Below are positions 18,714 through 31,080 of a DNA stretch of 44,442 nucleotides, piece by piece (the stretch's first letter is position 1; each line of letters opens with the position of its first letter). Both the position numbers and the translations under genes were made by a program. Source of the stretch: Thermomicrobiales bacterium (GTDB lineage: Bacteria; Chloroflexota; Chloroflexia; Thermomicrobiales; UBA6265); assembly GCA_047605145.1 (NCBI GenBank), contig JASGGF010000002.1, positions 1-44,442 of the forward strand, written 5' to 3'. The notes beneath the pieces were generated by a model. The model was not told the origin of the DNA, did not search any database, and saw nothing but the letters and a program-made list of their open reading frames with translations.

Positions 18714-19469
18714 ATGAACGCCGCAGCCGTGACCTTCGATTTTCACAACACGTTGGCAGACTGCCCGGAGTGGTTCGAACTGGAAGTGCGGCATCTGCCG
18801 TCCGCGTTTCTGGTCTGGCAGGCCGCCCAGTTCGATACGCCGTTGTCCGAAACCGTGCGCATGGCCGCCGATGAGCGCTACCGCACGCTACGCCGCGAGA
18901 TCATGGAGCACGGCAACGAGCTGACGGCGGAGCAGAGCCTGCGCCTCGTGTTCGACGAGATGCAGATCGCTGCCGGCGATGACGAGATCGCCGAAGGTGT
19001 CGCCGCCCTGATGCGCGAAGCCGCCGCGCTCGCCACCCCAATCCCCGGCGCGATCGAGACTGTGCAGGCGATCCACGCCAGCGGCACGCCGCTGGGCGTC
19101 GTTTCCAGCGCGGTCTACCACCCGTTTCTGGAGTGGACGCTGGAAGAATTCGGGATCAAGCCGGCATTCACCACGATTGTCACCTCCGCCAGCGCCGGCT
19201 TCTACAAATCGCGGCCGGAGATTTACCTGCACGCAGCGGAGCTGCTCGGCGCAACGCCGGCTCGCATGGTCCACGTCGGCGACTCATTGCGCTACGACGT
19301 GGGCGGGGCCAGCCGCGCCGGCATGGGGACCGTCTGGTTGCAGGACCCGCACAAGCCCGGGGACGGCTCCGATTTCCTGCCGGACCTGACAGTGCAAACG
19401 TTGACCGGCTCATCGCCAGCCATTCTCGAACTGCTGGCCGCGCGGAACACGCAGGCGGACAACGCGTGA
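18714..19469 (+). CDS. HAD superfamily hydrolase
   Basis: Motif I VTFDFHNTL, motif II VVSSA, and a late VHVGDSLRYDVGGA (motif IV-like). ATG at 18714 has GGAG upstream. Confidence 0.8.
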   Translation: MNAAAVTFDFHNTLADCPEWFELEVRHLPSAFLVWQAAQFDTPLSETVRMAADERYRTLRREIMEHGNELTAEQSLRLVFDEMQIAAGDDEIAEGVAALMREAAALATPIPGAIETVQAIHASGTPLGVVSSAVYHPFLEWTLEEFGIKPAFTTIVTSASAGFYKSRPEIYLHAAELLGATPARMVHVGDSLRYDVGGASRAGMGTVWLQDPHKPGDGSDFLPDLTVQTLTGSSPAILELLAARNTQADNA

Positions 19470-20245
19470 GCGACGAGGCGCAGAGGAACGACGGCCCGCC
19501 GTTCCTCCGGTTTGACGTCTTCACCCTGTTCCCGGGCATCTTCCGGGGGCCGCTCGACGAGAGCATCGTGCGGCGGGCGCAGGACCGGGGCATCGTGCAG
19601 GTCGATCTGCATGACCTTCGCAACTGGACCACGGACCGGCACCGGACAGCGGACGATACGCCCTACGGGGGTGGCGCCGGCATGGTGATGACCGCGCCGC
19701 CTATCGTGACCGGAGTCGAAGAGATTCTTGGTGAAGATCTGCCAGCCACTCGTATCGTCGTGATGGCAGCCGGCGGGCGACCGTTTACGCAGGCGCTGGC
19801 GCACGAACTCTCGCAGGCTGGCCGGATTGCGCTGATTTGCGGCCGCTACGAGGGCATCGACGTTCGCGCCATCGAGGTGCTCGGCGCCGAGGAGGTTTCC
19901 ATCGGCGATTACGTGCTGACCGGCGGGGAACTGGCGGCTGCCGTCGTGATCGACGCGGTCGCGCGTCTGGCGCCGGGCGTCATCGAGGCCGCGTCCATTG
20001 CCGACGAGTCCTTTCAGGAGCCTCTGCTGGAGTATCCCCACTACACCCGGCCACGCGAGTTCCGGGGGCTTGAGGTACCAGAGGTGTTGCTCAACGGCAA
20101 CCACGCCGCCATCAATCGCTGGCGGCGCGATCAGGCGATCCGGCGCACGGCCCTGCTTCGGCCGGACCTGCTGGCGCGCGCGTCGCTGACGGCCGCTGAG
20201 GCCGCACTCGCGGCGGAGACGACAGGCAGCGCAGGTCAGGACTGA
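19466..20245 (+). CDS. trmD: tRNA (guanine37-N1)-methyltransferase
   Basis: FDVFTLFPGIF, DDTPYGGGAGMVM, LICGRYEGIDVR, SIGDYVLTGGELAA and PHYTRP are TrmD signatures. GTG start overlaps the HAD stop (GTGA). Confidence 0.93.
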   Translation: MSDEAQRNDGPPFLRFDVFTLFPGIFRGPLDESIVRRAQDRGIVQVDLHDLRNWTTDRHRTADDTPYGGGAGMVMTAPPIVTGVEEILGEDLPATRIVVMAAGGRPFTQALAHELSQAGRIALICGRYEGIDVRAIEVLGAEEVSIGDYVLTGGELAAAVVIDAVARLAPGVIEAASIADESFQEPLLEYPHYTRPREFRGLEVPEVLLNGNHAAINRWRRDQAIRRTALLRPDLLARASLTAAEAALAAETTGSAGQD

Positions 20246-23384: not shown

Positions 23385-24287
23385 ATGGAATCACTCGTCC
23401 GCCTCTCCTTTTACTGCTTCGCCGCCGGGAGCTTCGCGTTCGCGGCATCAGCGCTGTGCTACATCGCCTACGCCATCGGACGCGTGCGGCTCCGGCGCAC
23501 CACGTTGGCGACCCCAGGCGGCCCGACGCTGACCGCGACCGGCGCCACGCTGGAGCCGCCTTCGCTCGGAGTCGGCAACGTGGCGACCCTGTTGGCCTGG
23601 TTCGGTGTCGTGTTCCAGGGGCTTTCCATTCTGCTGCGCACCATTGCCGCCGGCCGCGTGCCGCTCTCGAACATGTACGAGTTCTCCAGCACCTTTATCT
23701 TTCTGGCCGGACTGGTTTATCTCTTGTTCGAGCGCTGGTACGGGGTGCGCCAGCTCGGAGCCATTGTCCTGCCGCTGATCGTAGGTATGGCCGCGTACGT
23801 CTGGTACCTGCCGACCGGTCTGCGCGAGGTCGATGACCTGATCCCGGCGCTGCAAAACAAGCCGCTGATGACCGCGCACGTCTCGCTGGCGATTCTGGCC
23901 TACGCCACCTTTGCAGTGGCGTTCGCGGCCGCTGTGCTGTACCTCATCGCCGAGCGGTGGCACGTCTCGTGGCTGCCCAGCCCCGATCTTCTGGATGACC
24001 TCGGCTTCCGCGCCGTCACGGTCGGGTTCCCCTGCATGTCGCTCGTGCTGGTGCTGGGCTCCGTCTGGGCGTACCGCGCCTGGGGCACCTACTGGCAGTG
24101 GGACCCGAAGGAAACAGCGGCGCTGTTCACGTGGCTGGTGTACGCCGTCTATCTGCACACCCGCACGCTTCGCGGCTGGCGCGGGCGGCGGAGCGCGTGG
24201 ATTCTGGTGGGGGCATTCGGCGCGGTGATCTTCACGTACTTCGGCAACTACATCTTCGGGGGTCTGCACGCCTATGGCGGCGTCTGA
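23385..24287 (+). CDS. ccsB: System II cytochrome c biogenesis protein CcsB/ResC (CcsA family heme handler)
   Basis: The tryptophan-rich WWD-type motif WAYRAWGTYWQWDPKETAALFTWLVY is present, together with conserved His residues in flanking TM segments. Confidence 0.9.
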   Translation: MESLVRLSFYCFAAGSFAFAASALCYIAYAIGRVRLRRTTLATPGGPTLTATGATLEPPSLGVGNVATLLAWFGVVFQGLSILLRTIAAGRVPLSNMYEFSSTFIFLAGLVYLLFERWYGVRQLGAIVLPLIVGMAAYVWYLPTGLREVDDLIPALQNKPLMTAHVSLAILAYATFAVAFAAAVLYLIAERWHVSWLPSPDLLDDLGFRAVTVGFPCMSLVLVLGSVWAYRAWGTYWQWDPKETAALFTWLVYAVYLHTRTLRGWRGRRSAWILVGAFGAVIFTYFGNYIFGGLHAYGGV

Positions 24288-24918
24288 TCACGCGGTCCTG
24301 CCTGGCGAACCCTTGGCTGGTCCGGCGCTCACCCCGGCGCCGCAGGCGAACCGGCGGGTGCAGCTGATCGTGGCTGGCGTGGTGGCTGGCATCATCGTGC
24401 TCGCGGCGCTTGCTGTCGGCGCGTCGTCGGGCTGGGACACGATTGGTCGTGGTGGAATCAACCGCACGCTGCTGCCCAAGGTCGGCGAGCCCGCGCCGGA
24501 TTTCACCACCGAAGACGTCTTCGGCAACCCGGTCTCCTTGTCCCAGTTCAAGGGCCAGCCGGTCTGGCTGATGTTCTGGGGCTCGTGGTGCCCGCCCTGC
24601 CGCGCGGAGTTCCCGGATATTCAAGCCGCGTACTCGCAACTCGAGCCCAAAGGCTTGCGGATGCTGGGCGTGAGCCTGCGCGAGTCCCCCATCGACGCCG
24701 CCGCCTACGCCGGGCGCAACGGCGCCACATTTCTGGTGCTGAGCGATCCTGACGAACGAGACACCGGCGCCGCATACCCCGTCCTGAACTTCCCAACGCA
24801 CATCTTCATCGACCGCGATGGCATCGTCCGCTCCGTGGTGCTGGAAGACATGGACACCGAGCAGGCGATTGCCGAGGCAAGCCGCGTCCTCGGGGATCCG
24901 GGCCAGCCCGCCTCCTGA
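24274..24918 (+). CDS. resA: membrane-anchored thioredoxin-like thiol-disulfide oxidoreductase (ResA/TlpA family)
   Basis: N-terminal TM anchor VQLIVAGVVAGIIVLAALAV, then the redoxin core VWLMFWGSWCPPCRAEFP (CxxC). It overlaps the ccsB end by 14 nt. Confidence 0.85.
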   Translation: MAASDHAVLPGEPLAGPALTPAPQANRRVQLIVAGVVAGIIVLAALAVGASSGWDTIGRGGINRTLLPKVGEPAPDFTTEDVFGNPVSLSQFKGQPVWLMFWGSWCPPCRAEFPDIQAAYSQLEPKGLRMLGVSLRESPIDAAAYAGRNGATFLVLSDPDERDTGAAYPVLNFPTHIFIDRDGIVRSVVLEDMDTEQAIAEASRVLGDPGQPAS

Positions 24919-24936
24919 CCGGAAGCGCGCGAAGCC

Positions 24937-24980
24937 GAAAAAGAGCGGGGGACGGCTCAATGTGAGCCACCCCCCGTTTT
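24937..24980. terminator. bidirectional intrinsic terminator between resA and the cysteine-rich gene
   Basis: AAAAAG is followed by a long GC stem (CGGGGG..GGCTCA-ATG-TGAGCC..CCCCCG with a 2x2 internal loop) and then TTTT. A U-tract therefore follows the stem on both strands. Confidence 0.7.
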
Positions 24981-25006
24981 ACTCGCTGCTGGACGCGGTG
25001 GGTTTC

Positions 25007-25756
25007 CTAATCCATACAGAAGAGCGCGATGCACGCGCCATCGGGCGGCGTGCAGATGCCGCAACTCTCATTGCAGCACACCTGACCGGCTGGGCAGACC
25101 GTCCGGCCGCAGGGCACGCCAGCCGGCTCATCGCCGCAGAATTGCTCGGTGCAGAAGCCGCCGATTGGCGCGCAGATCCCGCAGCTCTCGTTGCAGCAAT
25201 ACTCATCCGGACCGCACGTAACGCCGCCGCACGCTTCGCCTTCGACATCGCGCCCACCGGGCCGGCGACCGCCGCAGAACTCGCGCGTGCACCCCTGCCC
25301 CAGCGGAATGCAGCGGCTGCAACTCTCGTTGCAGCAGTATTCTCCCGGCCCGCAAATGGCCTCGTTGCACTGCTCCGTCACGCACAGATCGTCCGAGCAT
25401 GGGACATCCGCCGGAACGCACAGACCGCCACAATTCGGGCAGCAGGTTGTCCCCTCCATACACAGCATGGCCGCGCACGGGTTCTGGTCGCCGGCAACGC
25501 AGACCCCGGCGCAATCGGCGCCGCCGGCGGCAGGATCACACCCATCCCCCTGCACATCGATGCACGACAGTCCCGGCTGGCACTGGAAGCCGGCGACGCC
25601 TCCGCACATTTCTCCCACGCTGCGCTGTTGAGCCATCGTCGAGCGGCCACCCAAAAGGGCTGCGCCAGCAGCGGCCAGCGCTGCCGCCAGCACCCTCCGC
25701 CGCGAAGGCTCCTTGCCGGCTACTCGCGCCAAGCGGTCAAAAGTCGAGCTGTCCAC
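25007..25756 (-). CDS. twin-arginine-signal secreted cysteine-rich repeat protein (249 aa, 38 Cys), function unknown
   Basis: GTG start has AAGGGGGA 5 nt upstream. Tat-like signal SRRRVLAAALAAAGAALLGG...TMA-QQ. The mature part is a 6-Cys N-module plus four 8-Cys modules. The Cys spacing is strictly periodic in this frame only. Confidence 0.7.
   Translation of the reverse strand: MDSSTFDRLARVAGKEPSRRRVLAAALAAAGAALLGGRSTMAQQRSVGEMCGGVAGFQCQPGLSCIDVQGDGCDPAAGGADCAGVCVAGDQNPCAAMLCMEGTTCCPNCGGLCVPADVPCSDDLCVTEQCNEAICGPGEYCCNESCSRCIPLGQGCTREFCGGRRPGGRDVEGEACGGVTCGPDEYCCNESCGICAPIGGFCTEQFCGDEPAGVPCGRTVCPAGQVCCNESCGICTPPDGACIALFCMD
25016..25477 (-). repeat. intragenic tandem array of four ~32-codon cysteine modules
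   Basis: Protein modules start at residues C94, C130, C176 and C216. The last three follow C-x4-C-x5-CC-x3-C-x2-C-x6-C-x4-C and share YCCNESC(G/S)(I/R)C. Recurrent DNA (GCAGAT(G/C)CCGCA(A/G)CTCTC(A/G)TTGCAGCA) is visible on the plus strand. Confidence 0.8.
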
Positions 25757-25897
25757 CGGTGTCCCCCTTGCGTTGCATCCCCAAAGACGTTGGCTGTATC
25801 ACGTTCATAACGAGGAGCGCGGGCCTCTGGTTACACCACGCGGCCTCCCTGCATCTCGCCCTGCCAGTCGCAACACCCATCGACACGCTGGCACACG

Positions 25898-25906
25898 TGC
25901 TATAGT
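25898..25906 (+). promoter_or_regulatory. candidate extended -10 promoter (TGcTATAGT) for yvcK-gap-pgk
   Basis: TGCTATAGT at 25898..25906 gives a leader of about 75 nt to the GTG at 25982. The leader contains a perfect 7-bp hairpin CTGTCCG-GGTTGG-CGGACAG (25914..25933). Confidence 0.35.
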
Positions 25907-25981
25907 GCGCGCGCTGTCCGGGTTGGCGGACAGGCCCCCGATCCTTGCATCGATCCCCGTGGGGCGCATCTCTGCGCGAGG

Positions 25982-28409
<2,428 letters not shown>

Positions 28410-29716: not shown

Positions 29717-29938
29717 ATGCACTTCGCGCTGAACATCGTCATGATCATTGTCTCCGTGGTGCTGATGGCGCTGATCCTCTTGCAAACCAAGGGCTCGTCG
29801 TTCAGCAGCGCGTTCGGCTCAGACGCCGGTTCCATCAACCGCACCCGCCGGGGCGTCGAGAAAACGCTCTTTCAGTTGACCATCGTGGTGGCAGTTGTGT
29901 ACGTCGCGTTGGCGATCGCCAGCACGCTTGTGGCCTGA
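29717..29938 (+). CDS. secG: preprotein translocase subunit SecG
   Basis: The protein is 73 aa. It has two TM helices flanking LLQTKGSSFSSAFG (the SecG LLQxGKG-type motif). The ATG at 29717 is preferred over the upstream TTG at 29705. Confidence 0.8.
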   Translation: MHFALNIVMIIVSVVLMALILLQTKGSSFSSAFGSDAGSINRTRRGVEKTLFQLTIVVAVVYVALAIASTLVA

Positions 29939-29955
29939 CGCCCCCCGGGTTTTGG

Positions 29956-29984
29956 TTGTGGCAGGGGCATCGCAGTCTTATACT
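29956..29984 (+). promoter_or_regulatory. candidate promoter of tatA (TTGTGG-17 nt-TATACT)
   Basis: TTGTGG at 29956..29961, 17-nt spacer, TATACT at 29979..29984. A leader of about 55 nt ends in AGGAGG before the tatA ATG. Confidence 0.35.
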
Positions 29985-30044
29985 TGCCGCCGCACAACCT
30001 GAACTCGCATTTCCAGTTTGGGCAATTTCGCAGGAGGTACCTTC

Positions 30045-30275
30045 ATGTTGGGCCTGGGTTGGCAAGAACTCGTTATTGTGCTCGTCATCATCATGATCAT
30101 CTTCGGGGCCGGCAAGCTGCCTGACGTCGTCAAGGGCCTCGGCCAGGGCGTCAAGGAGTTCAAGGCCGAAGCAAATGCCCCGTCTGACAGCCTCGCTGCG
30201 TCGGCGCCGGGCGCCACCTACGATCCGCTGGCTCCGGCCGCGGACCGCACCAGGGTTCGCGCGGACGAGATCTAG
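30045..30275 (+). CDS. tatA: twin-arginine translocase subunit TatA/E
   Basis: MLGLGWQELVIVLVIIMIIFGAGKLPDVVKGLGQGVKEFK is the canonical TatA TM, FGxxKLP hinge and amphipathic helix. AGGAGG lies 7 nt upstream. Confidence 0.88.
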   Translation: MLGLGWQELVIVLVIIMIIFGAGKLPDVVKGLGQGVKEFKAEANAPSDSLAASAPGATYDPLAPAADRTRVRADEI

Positions 30276-30313
30276 TCATCTTCCGGCACACGATGTCCAA
30301 CGATTTCGCAGAT

Positions 30314-30337
30314 GAGCGGGGCCTCTTCGCCCCGCTC
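30314..30337 (+). terminator. candidate terminator after tatA
   Basis: Perfect 9-bp stem GAGCGGGGC / GCCCCGCTC with loop CTCTTC, followed by the partly U-rich GTCGTGTTG. Confidence 0.45.
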
Positions 30338-30384
30338 GTCGTGTTGCCAGCCGCCTGCGCTGCTCGCAATGACAAGGCAAGTAC

Positions 30385-31080
30385 ATGACCGCGCCTCATG
30401 AATCGCCGGCCGAGGCGGCCGTCGCCGTCCCCAGTTCCGCCGCTCCCGCTCCGGCCGCCGCCGGGAGTGGGTCTTTCCGCGTTGTCCGCGAGATCGTTGA
30501 AACGCTCCTGCTCGCCGCCCTGATCTTCTTCCTGGTGCGGCTGGTGGTGCTCAACTTCCGCGTCGATGGCGAGAGCATGCTGCCGAACCTCGATGACGGT
30601 CAGATGCTGCTGGTCAACCGCAACGCCTACGAGTTCCTCGACTGGCAGGGGCAGCGGCTGTACCCCTTCGATCCGCCGGAGCGCGGCGACATCGTGGTCT
30701 TCAATCCGCCGACCAACTCGGACAAGCCGTACATCAAGCGAATCATCGGCCTCCCTGGCGACGAGATCACGTTCGACAACCGGAACAACCGGGTTCTCGT
30801 CAACGGGGAGCCGCTGGAAGAGGACTACATCGCCTACCAGACCAATTGCCGGCCCCGGAATGACGACTACTGTGACGTGGTGGTTCAGCCCGATCACGTC
30901 TTCGTGCTGGGTGACCACCGCACCAACTCAAGCGATTCCCGGGTCTTCGGCGAAGTGCCAATGGAGAACATTATCGGCAAGGCCTGGTTCTCCTACTGGC
31001 CTGCCAACGACATCGGGTTTGTTCCGCACGAAAGCTACGATGACATTCCGGAGCCGGTAGCCGCATCACCCACGCCGTAG
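30385..31080 (+). CDS. lepB: signal peptidase I
   Basis: It has a TM anchor, the catalytic Ser box GESMLPNL, the Lys box YIKRIIGLPGDEI and GDHRTNSSDSRVFG. Confidence 0.9.
   Translation: MTAPHESPAEAAVAVPSSAAPAPAAAGSGSFRVVREIVETLLLAALIFFLVRLVVLNFRVDGESMLPNLDDGQMLLVNRNAYEFLDWQGQRLYPFDPPERGDIVVFNPPTNSDKPYIKRIIGLPGDEITFDNRNNRVLVNGEPLEEDYIAYQTNCRPRNDDYCDVVVQPDHVFVLGDHRTNSSDSRVFGEVPMENIIGKAWFSYWPANDIGFVPHESYDDIPEPVAASPTP

What the first reader, a model, noticed from the sequence alone, without database searches (positions are those of the whole stretch)
25007..25756. Tat-signal, histidine-free protein built from four 8-cysteine modules, next to the cytochrome c maturation cluster
Seen in sequence. 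The 249-aa ORF has a good SD and a twin-arginine-type signal (SRRRVLAAALAAAGAALLGG..TMA/QQ). Its mature part of about 205 aa contains 38 Cys (about 18 percent) and no His, Trp or Lys. After a 6-Cys N-module (CGGVAGFQCQPGLSCIDVQGDGCDPAAGGADCAGVC) come four modules. Three of them follow exactly C-x4-C-x5-CC-x3-C-x2-C-x6-C-x4-C and share (E/Q)(Y/V)CCNESC(G/S)(I/R)C. The first is a looser copy (CAAMLCMEGTTCCPNCGGLCVPADVPCSDDLC). There is no CxxCH, so it is not a c-type cytochrome. Established knowledge: Tat normally exports folded or cofactor-loaded proteins, which is an odd route for a presumptive disulfide-knot protein. The CPxGxxCC element is reminiscent of granulin-like modules, and the N-module resembles IGFBP/Kazal-like CGGxxGxxCxxGLxC motifs, but I cannot assign either. 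Inference: this could be an undescribed extracytoplasmic cysteine-module family, either a metal or metal-sulfide binder or a disulfide-rich structural or inhibitor protein. It might be a client of the adjacent CcdA/ResA thiol-redox pathway. It is convergent with resA, not co-transcribed, and the two share a bidirectional terminator.
Basis: partly seen in the sequence, partly recalled or inferred. Interest (0 to 1): 0.7.

Follow-up and report, generated by a model that had tools for sequence, protein, structure and literature searches.

The report
Secreted cysteine-module protein, unnamed family
This is a real, conserved gene of uncultured Thermomicrobiales bacteria for a small, acidic exported protein made of five tiny cysteine-knit modules; the modules belong to two widespread but unnamed families also found in myxobacteria and fungi, and its position next to the cytochrome c maturation genes looks like conserved gene order rather than a functional link.

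Summary
ORF 25007..25756 (-) encodes 249 aa with an SRRRVL twin-arginine-type leader. The mature part is 207 aa with 38 Cys and no His, Lys or Trp. It has one 6-Cys N-module, one looser 8-Cys module and three exact C-x4-C-x5-CC-x3-C-x2-C-x6-C-x4-C modules.

The gene is real. It has 303 homologues, all 38 Cys and the RR pair are conserved in 45 orthologues, and dN/dS is 0.07-0.36. No Pfam, NCBIfam or PDB sequence match covers the modules.

A profile search found 2,164 clusters in which the N-module and the 8-Cys module shuffle independently. They occur in Chloroflexota, Myxococcota, ascomycete fungi and a foraminiferan, often behind lipoprotein-like or eukaryote-type signal peptides. Occasional fusions are to Kazal, Antistasin, Potato-inhibitor-I and PrcB_C domains.

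AlphaFold models are confident. The N-module weakly resembles the IGFBP N-domain. The 8-Cys module resembles the granulin N-subdomain only non-significantly.

The best reading is a secreted, disulfide-stabilised binding protein, possibly a protease inhibitor. The metal-binder and ResA-client ideas are not supported: the resA adjacency is part of a frozen housekeeping block, and paralogues lie elsewhere. This is a modestly interesting, undescribed domain family.

The parts
25007..25756 (-). Complete coding sequence (249 aa + stop) of the Cys-rich modular protein
   Evidence: ORF list and translation. 303 homologues. dN/dS 0.07-0.36 and GC3 0.76.
25762..25769 (-). Shine-Dalgarno-like AAGGGGGA, 5 nt before the GTG start
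   Evidence: Read from the sequence. The start column is shared with the ATG starts of the orthologues.
25631..25756 (-). Export leader, aa 1-42. It has a conserved amphipathic n-region (FDRLAR), SRRRVL, an Ala/Gly-rich h-region, a basic c-region and a TMA/QQ cleavage-type site.
   Evidence: Pfam TAT_signal E = 0.013, below cut-off. D7, R19 and R20 are invariant and F6 is nearly invariant (>=90%) in 45 orthologues. AF2 predicts two helices at aa 3-14 and 19-35.
25694..25702 (-). Twin-arginine codons (R19 R20 R21)
   Evidence: R19 and R20 are invariant columns.
25499..25606 (-). N-module, aa 51-86, 6 Cys: CGGVAGFQCQPGLSCIDVQGDGCDPAAGGADCAGVC. It has a mini-IGFBP-like fold and an acidic D-rich loop.
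   Evidence: Recurs on its own in arrays of up to 15 copies. Foldseek top hits are IGFBP N-domains and SIBD-1. C4 and C5 are lost together in 4 copies.
25382..25477 (-). L-module, aa 94-125: a looser 8-Cys module with CC-x2-C-x3-C
25274..25369 (-). 8-Cys module 2, aa 130-161 (CNEAICGPGEYCCNESCSRCIPLGQGCTREFC)
   Evidence: Regex match. The single-module AF2 model has pLDDT 92.6 and two beta-hairpins.
25136..25231 (-). 8-Cys module 3, aa 176-207
25016..25111 (-). 8-Cys module 4, aa 216-247; the most conserved module
   Evidence: Lowest column entropy of all regions.
24946..24976 (.). Hairpin terminator between the convergent Cys-rich gene and the resA-like gene. It has a T-run on the minus strand and a shorter one on the plus strand.
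   Evidence: 14-pair stem with 10 GC pairs. MFE -38.7 kcal/mol, z = -3.2.

Best explanation
The ORF is a genuine core gene of an uncultured Thermomicrobiales bacterium.

Shown:
- It encodes a precursor with a twin-arginine-type leader and a 20.7-kDa, very acidic (pI about 4) mature chain that is almost free of Lys, His and Trp.
- The mature chain is a string of five independently folding mini-domains. These are one 6-Cys N-module, followed by four 8-Cys modules each built of two short beta-hairpins.
- Both module types are mobile building blocks of proteins that carry export signals. They occur in Chloroflexota, Myxococcota, ascomycete fungi and a foraminiferan, and no library names them.

Inferred:
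- After export the 38 cysteines form 19 intramodule disulfides: 3 in the N-module and 4 in each 8-Cys module. This would give a rigid, protease-resistant beads-on-a-string protein.
- The protein then acts outside the cell by binding other molecules.
- The most likely partners are proteins. The most specific guess is that it is a multi-headed inhibitor or decoy for extracellular proteases. The reason is that the only recognisable domains ever fused to these modules are mainly protease-inhibitor or protease-associated ones.
- The Tat-type leader is the usual export leader of this clade. It is not a sign of a cofactor.
- The position beside resA is inherited gene order.
For: - Real gene: 303 homologues. 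All Cys and the RR pair are conserved, and indels fall only in linkers. dN/dS is 0.07-0.36.
- Modular folding: the AF2 full-length model has module pLDDT 84-92 but pTM only 0.33. The single-module model has pLDDT 92.6.
- Independent modules: 2,164 clusters match the profile. N-only, 8-only and mixed arrays all occur.
- Extracellular, disulfide-type context: the modules follow lipoprotein-like signals in Myxococcota-like proteins and eukaryote-type signal peptides in fungal and foraminiferan proteins.
- Cys arithmetic: Cys counts are even in 114 of 120 homologues and step by 8. C4 and C5 of the N-module are lost together.
- Structural neighbours are disulfide-rich binding domains. For the N-module these are IGFBP N-domains, IGFBP7 and SIBD-1. 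For the 8-Cys module it is the granulin N-subdomain, not significant.
- Fusion partners: Kazal_1 in 3 proteins, PrcB_C in 3, Antistasin in 2 and Potato inhibitor I in 1.
- Leader is generic: the same leader occurs on NHL-repeat and other unrelated proteins.
- tatA, secG and a signal peptidase gene are in the window.
Against: - No experimental data exist for any family member.
- The structural matches are weak. The best Foldseek E-value is 0.15, and no hit reaches 1e-3.
- Inhibitor-domain fusions occur in only about 9 of 140 representatives. The partner domains are themselves small disulfide modules, so the co-occurrence may only reflect a generic extracellular mosaic.
- No hypervariable reactive-site loop stands out. 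The modules are rather uniformly conserved.
- Gene neighbourhoods of paralogues gave no consistent protease partner.
- An invariant RR leader on a protein that cannot form disulfides in a reducing cytoplasm remains somewhat unexplained.
Confidence: 0.5

Rival explanations
1. It is a structural or adhesive envelope or matrix protein. On this reading the disulfide-knit modules are rigid, protease-resistant spacers or cross-linkable units of the cell surface or extracellular matrix, and they have no specific inhibitory target.
For: - Arrays of up to 15 identical-type modules occur with nothing else attached.
- One member is fused to a tail-fibre chaperone domain, Peptidase_S74.
- The composition is Gly/Pro/Cys-rich, acidic and almost free of Lys and Arg.
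- Cys-rich repeats of other kinds are described in diatom adhesive proteins (10.1101/2023.03.06.531300).
Against: - No cell-wall anchor, transmembrane segment or sortase signal follows module 4. The protein ends 2 residues after the last Cys.
- Each module position keeps its own conserved sequence across orthologues. That suggests specific surfaces rather than generic spacers.
Confidence: 0.2
2. It is a metal or metal-sulfide binding protein, loaded and folded in the cytoplasm and exported folded by Tat. This would be a metallothionein-like or Csp1-like extracytoplasmic metal store or buffer.
For: - The RR leader is invariant.
- The mature chain is 18.8% Cys with CC and CxxC elements and almost no His.
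- From established knowledge: Tat usually carries folded or cofactor-loaded proteins, and Csp1 is a precedent for a Tat-exported Cys-rich copper store.
Against: - The same modules are exported behind lipoprotein-like signals and eukaryote-type signal peptides in Myxococcota, fungi and a foraminiferan, where disulfide formation is the rule.
- Aromatic residues are conserved (EYCC, xFC) and the fold is a beta-hairpin fold, unlike metallothioneins.
- A Cys pair is lost together.
- No metal-homeostasis genes lie nearby.
- The leader type is shared with unrelated proteins.
Confidence: 0.1
3. It is a client or redox partner of the adjacent CcdA/ResA thiol-reducing pathway. For example, it could be a thiol buffer linked to cytochrome c maturation.
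For: The gene sits between cofD and resA in about 25 Chloroflexota genomes, even where the protein has diverged to about 41-49% identity.
Against: - The whole block, from aconitase through the ccs genes and glycolysis genes to secG, tatA and lepB, is syntenic. The adjacency therefore carries no specific signal.
- The gene is convergent with resA and has its own terminator.
- Extra paralogues in the same genomes, and all Myxococcota relatives, are unlinked to ccs genes.
- CcdA/ResA delivers reducing power for apocytochrome CxxCH (established knowledge). A 38-Cys disulfide protein needs an oxidant.
Confidence: 0.06
4. It is a spurious ORF, and the real gene is the opposite-strand ORF 24818..25810.
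For: High-GC genomes produce long antisense ORFs, and a 330-aa ORF does exist on the plus strand.
Against: - The protein-level pattern is conserved across more than 300 homologues with indels in multiples of codons.
- dN/dS is well below 1.
- The GC3 pattern favours the minus frame.
- The plus-strand ORF starts inside resA and runs through the terminator hairpin.
Confidence: 0.01

Closest known systems
IGFBP N-terminal domain: mini-IGFBP, SIBD-1 and the IB domain of IGFBP7 (Pfam PF00219)
   Same: - It is a small disulfide-rich domain with the motif CG-x5-C-x2-GL-x-C ... G-x-G-V-C.
- The top Foldseek PDB hits of the full model are all of this type: 7wrq_B, 8ivd_D (prob 0.94, rmsd 2.3 A), 1h59_B (TM-score normalised to target 0.62) and 3zxc_B (rmsd 1.7 A, 28% identity).
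- As in IGFBP7 and HtrA1 (from memory), some relatives combine the module with a Kazal domain.
   Different: - There is no sequence-level match, either to Pfam IGFBP or with the N-module profile against PDB sequences.
- Foldseek E-values are only 0.15-1.2.
- The N-module has an extra C4-C5 loop with an acidic DDPxDxCDPxxGGADC segment.
- It lacks the GCGCC subdomain.
- It occurs in bacteria, fungi and a foraminiferan as tandem arrays.
Granulin/epithelin module (Pfam PF00396), N-terminal subdomain
   Same: - It starts with C-x4-6-C-x5-CC and is predicted to form stacked beta-hairpins.
- The best PDB structural neighbour of the isolated module is the granulin A N-subdomain, 1g26 (25 columns, 36% identity).
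   Different: - The match is not significant (E = 4.8).
- The module has 8 Cys with a single CC pair, against 12 Cys with four CC pairs in granulin.
- There is no Pfam Granulin hit in any of 140 members.
- The invariant CCNxSC core is specific to this module.
Multi-headed disulfide-rich protease inhibitors (Kazal, Antistasin, Potato inhibitor I families)
   Same: - They are also exported tandem arrays of small disulfide-stabilised modules.
- Some relatives carry these inhibitor domains in the same polypeptide.
- The chain is acidic and poor in Lys and Arg, so it should resist tryptic attack.
   Different: - The window protein itself contains none of these domains.
- The Cys spacings differ.
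- No reactive-site loop has been identified.
- Inhibition is untested.
Other bacterial and eukaryotic cysteine-rich repeats: the Myxococcus cysteine-rich repeat DUF4215, and the CysRRep of Daugavet et al. 2026
   Same: They are short Cys-rich repeats shared between bacteria, notably Myxococcota, and eukaryotes, and their function is unknown.
   Different: - The spacing differs. CysRRep is Cx6-9Cx5-7Cx8-11Cx7-8CC.
- No DUF4215 hit was found in the window protein or in 140 relatives.
Csp1, a Tat-exported Cys-rich copper storage protein (recalled from the literature, not tested here)
   Same: It also combines a Tat leader with a Cys-rich mature protein.
   Different: - Csp1 is a four-helix bundle with Cys lining the core.
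- This protein is predicted to be all short beta-hairpins in separate mini-domains.
- Relatives of this protein carry lipoprotein-like or eukaryote-type signal peptides.

Membership tests
Tat (twin-arginine) signal peptide | S/T-R-R-x-F-L-K-type motif with consecutive arginines | tested here: met
   The motif is S-R-R-R-V-L-A at aa 18-24. R19 and R20 are invariant in 45 orthologues.
Tat (twin-arginine) signal peptide | Weakly hydrophobic h-region, a basic residue in the c-region and an AxA-type cleavage site | tested here: met
   The sequence is VLAAALAAAGAALLGG, then R38, then TMA/QQ. The orthologue consensus is ...RRxxxAQ.
Tat (twin-arginine) signal peptide | Score above the curated HMM cut-off (Pfam PF10518, NCBIfam TIGR01409) | tested here: not met
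   Pfam TAT_signal scores 15.9 bits against a cut-off of 22.7 (E = 0.013). NCBIfam gives no hit. Short signal models often miss true cases, so the assignment rests on the motif.
Tat (twin-arginine) signal peptide | Tat-dependent export shown experimentally (RR to KK, or a tat mutant) | not testable with these tools
   Only tatA is seen, at window 30045-30272.
IGFBP N-terminal domain (PF00219) | Sequence match to the family model | tested here: not met
   There is no Pfam hit at E<=10 for the window protein, and none among 140 relatives at E<=1e-3. The N-module profile finds no IGFBP among PDB sequences.
IGFBP N-terminal domain (PF00219) | Same fold and disulfide framework | tested here: inconclusive
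   The top Foldseek hits are IGFBP or SIBD structures with rmsd 1.7-3.6 A over 47-50 columns for ranks 2-7, but E is 0.15-1.2. The C1/C2/C3/C6 layout fits mini-IGFBP if C4-C5 is a local pair.
Granulin (PF00396) | 12-Cys framework with four CC pairs, and a match to the family model | tested here: not met
   The module has 8 Cys and one CC pair. There is no Pfam hit. The only structural neighbour, 1g26, has E = 4.8.
c-type cytochrome | CxxCH haem-binding motif | tested here: not met
   The protein has no His at all.
Metallothionein-like metal binder | Cys-rich chain, no aromatic residues, no regular secondary structure without metal, and metal stoichiometry | tested here: not met
   Aromatic residues are conserved in every module. 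The beta-hairpin fold is predicted with confidence. Metal content cannot be tested here.
Canonical disulfide-rich protease inhibitors (Kazal, Antistasin, Potato I) | Match to an inhibitor family model in this protein | tested here: not met
   There is none in the window protein. Such domains occur only as fusion partners in some relatives.
Canonical disulfide-rich protease inhibitors (Kazal, Antistasin, Potato I) | Measured inhibition of a protease | not testable with these tools
   This needs biochemical assays.

The most novel reading that the evidence does not exclude
The invariant twin-arginine leader may mean that the protein is folded in the cytoplasm around metal ions or metal-sulfide clusters held by its 38 thiolates, and then exported intact by Tat. 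It would then be a new kind of extracytoplasmic metal or redox buffer, kept next to the cytochrome c maturation genes in Thermomicrobiales. On this reading the lipoprotein-signal and eukaryotic relatives would be a disulfide-bonded offshoot of the same fold.
Probability: 0.07. Interest if true: 0.75.

Novelty: new variant of a known kind. Interest (0 to 1): 0.42.

Why it matters
Two small cysteine-rich modules turn out to be widespread. The profile matches 2,164 clusters at 50% identity, spread across Chloroflexota, Myxococcota, ascomycete fungi and a foraminiferan. The modules have no name, no solved structure and no known function.

Defining them would annotate thousands of "hypothetical" exported proteins. 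It could also reveal a new class of microbial protease inhibitors or binding scaffolds. Small, very stable disulfide frameworks of this kind are useful for protein engineering.

The Thermomicrobiales version also poses a tidy question for Tat biology: how does a protein that should only fold after oxidation pass a transporter that normally checks folding?

The cross-kingdom distribution is a candidate case of domain transfer between bacteria and eukaryotes.

Tried and rejected
- Pfam-A and NCBIfam on the whole protein found nothing but a sub-threshold TAT_signal hit.
- Three PDB sequence searches found no meaningful hit: the whole protein, the 8-Cys module profile and the N-module profile.
- Foldseek of the full model against the viral BFVD library found nothing.
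- An Rfam scan of the flanks found nothing.
- Literature searches for the CCNESC motif, for Tat with disulfide-rich Chloroflexi proteins, and for Thermomicrobiales cysteine-rich secreted proteins found no description. Two papers on cysteine-rich repeats concern different repeats.
- N-glycosylation sequon as the reason for the invariant N-x-S in CCNESC: rejected, because X is Pro in 40 of 310 modules.
- Specific linkage to the ccs genes: rejected after the synteny analysis.
- Paralogue neighbourhoods gave no consistent theme. A small Peptidase_M55 gene lies upstream in two related contigs, which is probably shared ancestry.
- My first N-module alignment (A4) used an out-of-frame window reference. 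It was discarded and redone as A5.
Source names were checked with cluster look-ups instead.
- Disulfide connectivity could not be read from the models, because coordinates are not exposed.
Full report
**1. Observation**

The ORF at 25007..25756 on the minus strand is exactly as described.
- It is 249 codons long with a GTG start. AAGGGGGA lies 5 nt upstream.
- The leader ends ...SRRRVLAAALAAAGAALLGGRSTMA/QQ.
- The mature part is 207 aa with 38 Cys (18.4%) and no His, Lys or Trp.
- The regex C-x4-C-x5-CC-x3-C-x2-C-x6-C-x4-C matches three times, at aa 130-161, 176-207 and 216-247.
- A looser copy (CC-x2-C-x3-C) lies at aa 94-125.
- A 6-Cys N-module lies at aa 51-86.

The gene is convergent with a ResA-like redoxin gene (24274..24918). 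The two are separated by a 14-bp, GC-rich hairpin at 24946..24976 with T-runs on both sides. The window has 66% G+C.

**2. It is a real gene**

- A search of the large protein collection gave 303 homologues at E<=1e-3. None has a Pfam domain, and all named ones are "hypothetical protein" from Thermomicrobiales or Chloroflexota MAGs.
- In an alignment of 45 orthologues, all 38 Cys and the RR pair are invariant or nearly so. Insertions and deletions occur only in the linkers. All sequences start at the same column as the window's GTG.
- dN/dS against four orthologues is 0.07-0.36, with dS saturated.
- The minus frame has the expected GC3 excess (0.76). The 330-aa opposite-strand ORF 24818..25810 does not: its GC3 is 0.66 and below its GC1. 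That ORF also starts inside resA and runs through the terminator. The spurious-ORF alternative is rejected.
- The lack of H, K and W is a family trait: K 0.09%, H 0.2% and W 0.2% of mature residues, with R 1.2% against D+E 11.8%. The mature protein is 20.7 kDa with pI about 4.05.

**3. What the modules are**

Pfam-A and NCBIfam recognise nothing except a sub-threshold TAT_signal match. PDB sequence searches are empty.

An exhaustive profile search with the 45-sequence alignment found 2,164 representative clusters at E<=1e-3, and 773 at E<=1e-10. I built separate HMMs for the modules and mapped the architectures of the 260 proteins in hand. The N-module and the 8-Cys module are independent building blocks:
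- N-L-8-8-8, the window's layout, occurs 58 times.
- Pure 8-Cys arrays and mixed orders also occur.
- Pure N-module arrays reach 15 copies.
- In the family, Cys counts step by 8 (22, 30, 38, 46) as modules are gained or lost, and they are even in 114 of 120 homologues.

**4. Distribution**

- The full-length Tat-leader form is confined to Thermomicrobiales, Sphaerobacteraceae and Chloroflexia MAGs. Several genomes carry 2-3 paralogues.
- Module-only relatives are common in Myxococcota (Polyangium, Chondromyces, Labilithrix, Sandaracinaceae, Archangiaceae). One occurs in an acidobacterium.
- Other members come from ascomycete fungi (Madurella mycetomatis, Podospora fimiseda, Mycothermus/Humicola, Peltigera) and from the foraminiferan Bolivina argentea. 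All are uncharacterised.
- Judged by eye from the N-terminal sequences, many of these relatives carry lipoprotein-like (Myxococcota-like) or eukaryote-type signal peptides rather than RR leaders. No signal-peptide predictor was run. So the modules appear to work outside the cell regardless of export route.

**5. Structure**

- The full-length AlphaFold2 model has mean pLDDT 81, with modules at 84-92, but pTM is only 0.33. This means well-defined beads on a flexible string. The leader forms two helices.
- A single 8-Cys module modelled with 74 diverse copies reaches pLDDT 92.6 and consists of two short beta-hairpins.
- Foldseek against the PDB gave no hit at E<=1e-3.
- For the full model, the first seven hits are all IGFBP N-domains or relatives: IGFBP3, IGFBP7 (prob 0.94, rmsd 2.3 A), mini-IGFBP-5 (TM-score normalised to target 0.62), IGFBP4 and spider SIBD-1 (rmsd 1.7 A, 28% identity).
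- This fits the shared motif CG-x5-C-x2-GL-x-C...GxGVC of the N-module. The query range was not reported, so assigning these hits to the N-module is an inference.
- In degenerate N-module copies, C4 and C5 disappear together along with the acidic loop between them. That suggests a local C4-C5 disulfide. It leaves a C1/C2/C3/C6 framework like the four Cys of mini-IGFBP as I recall it.
- The isolated 8-Cys module's nearest PDB neighbour is the N-terminal subdomain of granulin A (1g26, 25 columns, 36% identity) at E = 4.8. This is a resemblance, not a membership.
- No IGFBP or Granulin Pfam match appears in the window protein or in 140 relatives.
- The invariant N-x-S of CCNESC is not a glycosylation sequon, since X is Pro in 40 of 310 modules.

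**6. Functional clues**

Among 140 diverse representatives, the only Pfam domains found alongside the modules were these:
- Kazal_1 (3 proteins), PrcB_C (3), Antistasin (2) and Potato inhibitor I (1).
- Peptidase_S74 chaperone (1).
- Weak FOLN, EGF_3, Somatomedin_B and Toxin_7 matches.

Most of these are protease inhibitors or protease-associated domains. This is the basis for proposing a protease-inhibitor or protein-binding role. The caveats are that such fusions are rare (about 9 of 140) and that the partner domains are themselves small disulfide modules. The near absence of Lys and Arg, together with dense disulfides, would make the protein hard to digest. That fits either an inhibitor or a structural role.

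**7. The neighbourhood**

Around the gene the window carries these genes:
- aconitase, trmD, recO, ccdA, resB, ccsA and resA on one side;
- cofD/yvcK-like, gap, pgk, secG, tatA and lepB on the other.

The same order is found in about 25 Chloroflexota genomes, even where the Cys-rich protein has diverged to about 41-49% identity. Because the whole block is frozen, the adjacency to resA says nothing specific.

Second and third paralogues in the same genomes, and all Myxococcota relatives, lie elsewhere without ccs genes. In addition, CcdA/ResA is a reducing pathway for apocytochrome CxxCH (established knowledge), not a disulfide-forming one. The "client of ResA" idea is therefore not supported.

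**8. The Tat question**

The leader has the defining motif: SRRRVL, an Ala/Gly-rich h-region and a basic c-region. The RR pair is invariant, although the HMM scores are below cut-off.

The conserved n-region plus RR pattern (FDxLxRxL...SRR) also occurs on unrelated proteins in Chloroflexota DNA fetched here. These include an NHL-repeat protein, a substrate-binding-like protein and small Cys proteins. So it looks like a clade-typical export leader.

The mature chain is hydrophilic and acidic. From established knowledge, Tat can pass small hydrophilic unstructured chains, and in some high-GC lineages it is used very broadly. I therefore regard Tat export followed by extracytoplasmic oxidation as plausible. 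It remains the one mildly puzzling feature, and it keeps a small probability on a metal-loaded reading.

**9. Verdict**

- The IGFBP-like and granulin-like impressions get weak structural support but fail the membership tests.
- The metal-binder and ResA-client ideas are not supported.
- The best explanation is a secreted, disulfide-stabilised, multi-module binding protein, possibly a protease inhibitor.
- The main rival is a structural or matrix role.

Novelty is at the level of new domain families within a familiar class of small disulfide-rich extracellular modules. Interest is moderate.

Noticed in passing
window 25757-25981 (intergenic, divergent with the cofD-like gene at 25982): A conserved GAGTATAGCA-like box (window: CACTATAGCAC) and a small conserved inverted repeat, GGAACG-N12-16-CGTT, are shared by the window and orthologous loci L001-L003. 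They could be a -10 element plus an operator, or a leader hairpin. There is no Rfam match.
   Followed up: partly
window 29717-31071: secG (29717-29881), tatA (30045-30272) and a type I signal peptidase S26 gene (30565-31071) lie 4-5 kb from the Cys-rich gene. They are part of the same syntenic block in all orthologous loci.
   Followed up: partly
L005 7305-8807 and L087 6229-7702: A paralogue class has a different RR leader (RxxDRRQAGLLGAALLALL) and a Lys/Arg-rich linker before the modules. In two contigs it lies directly downstream of a short Peptidase_M55 gene. This is probably shared ancestry.
   Followed up: partly
L006 about 6247 (+), L006 about 3575 (-), L087 about 5786 (+), L025 about 8105 (+): Unrelated proteins carry the same FDxLxRxL...SRR leader. 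They include an NHL-repeat protein, a 140-aa protein, a 109-aa protein with 8 Cys and a 541-aa protein. The conserved amphipathic n-region upstream of RR may be a clade-specific feature, possibly a chaperone-binding site.
   Followed up: partly
P0206, P0255, P0235, P0272 (fungi) and P0149 (Bolivina argentea): Both module types occur in ascomycete fungi (Madurella, Podospora, Mycothermus/Humicola, Peltigera) and in a foraminiferan, as well as in Chloroflexota and Myxococcota. This patchy cross-kingdom distribution is suggestive of horizontal transfer of the modules.
   Followed up: no
P0170 (388 aa): Four 8-Cys modules are fused to a Peptidase_S74 domain, the intramolecular chaperone of endosialidase and tail fibres. 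This hints that some module arrays sit in fibre-like or phage-derived proteins.
   Followed up: no
window 25499-25606 (N-module, aa 66-82): The acidic loop (V/I)DDPxDxCDPxxGGADC is conserved, and D81 is invariant. It is reminiscent of Ca2+-binding loops of LDL-receptor class A or thrombospondin type 3 repeats (from memory). It is lost together with the C4-C5 pair in degenerate copies.
   Followed up: no
window 19133-20245 (+): The mechanical ORF for trmD is 370 aa, but the Pfam match starts at residue 147 and orthologues are about 260-285 aa. The true start is probably about 100 codons downstream, and the upstream part overlaps a HAD-hydrolase-like gene seen in the syntenic loci.
   Followed up: no
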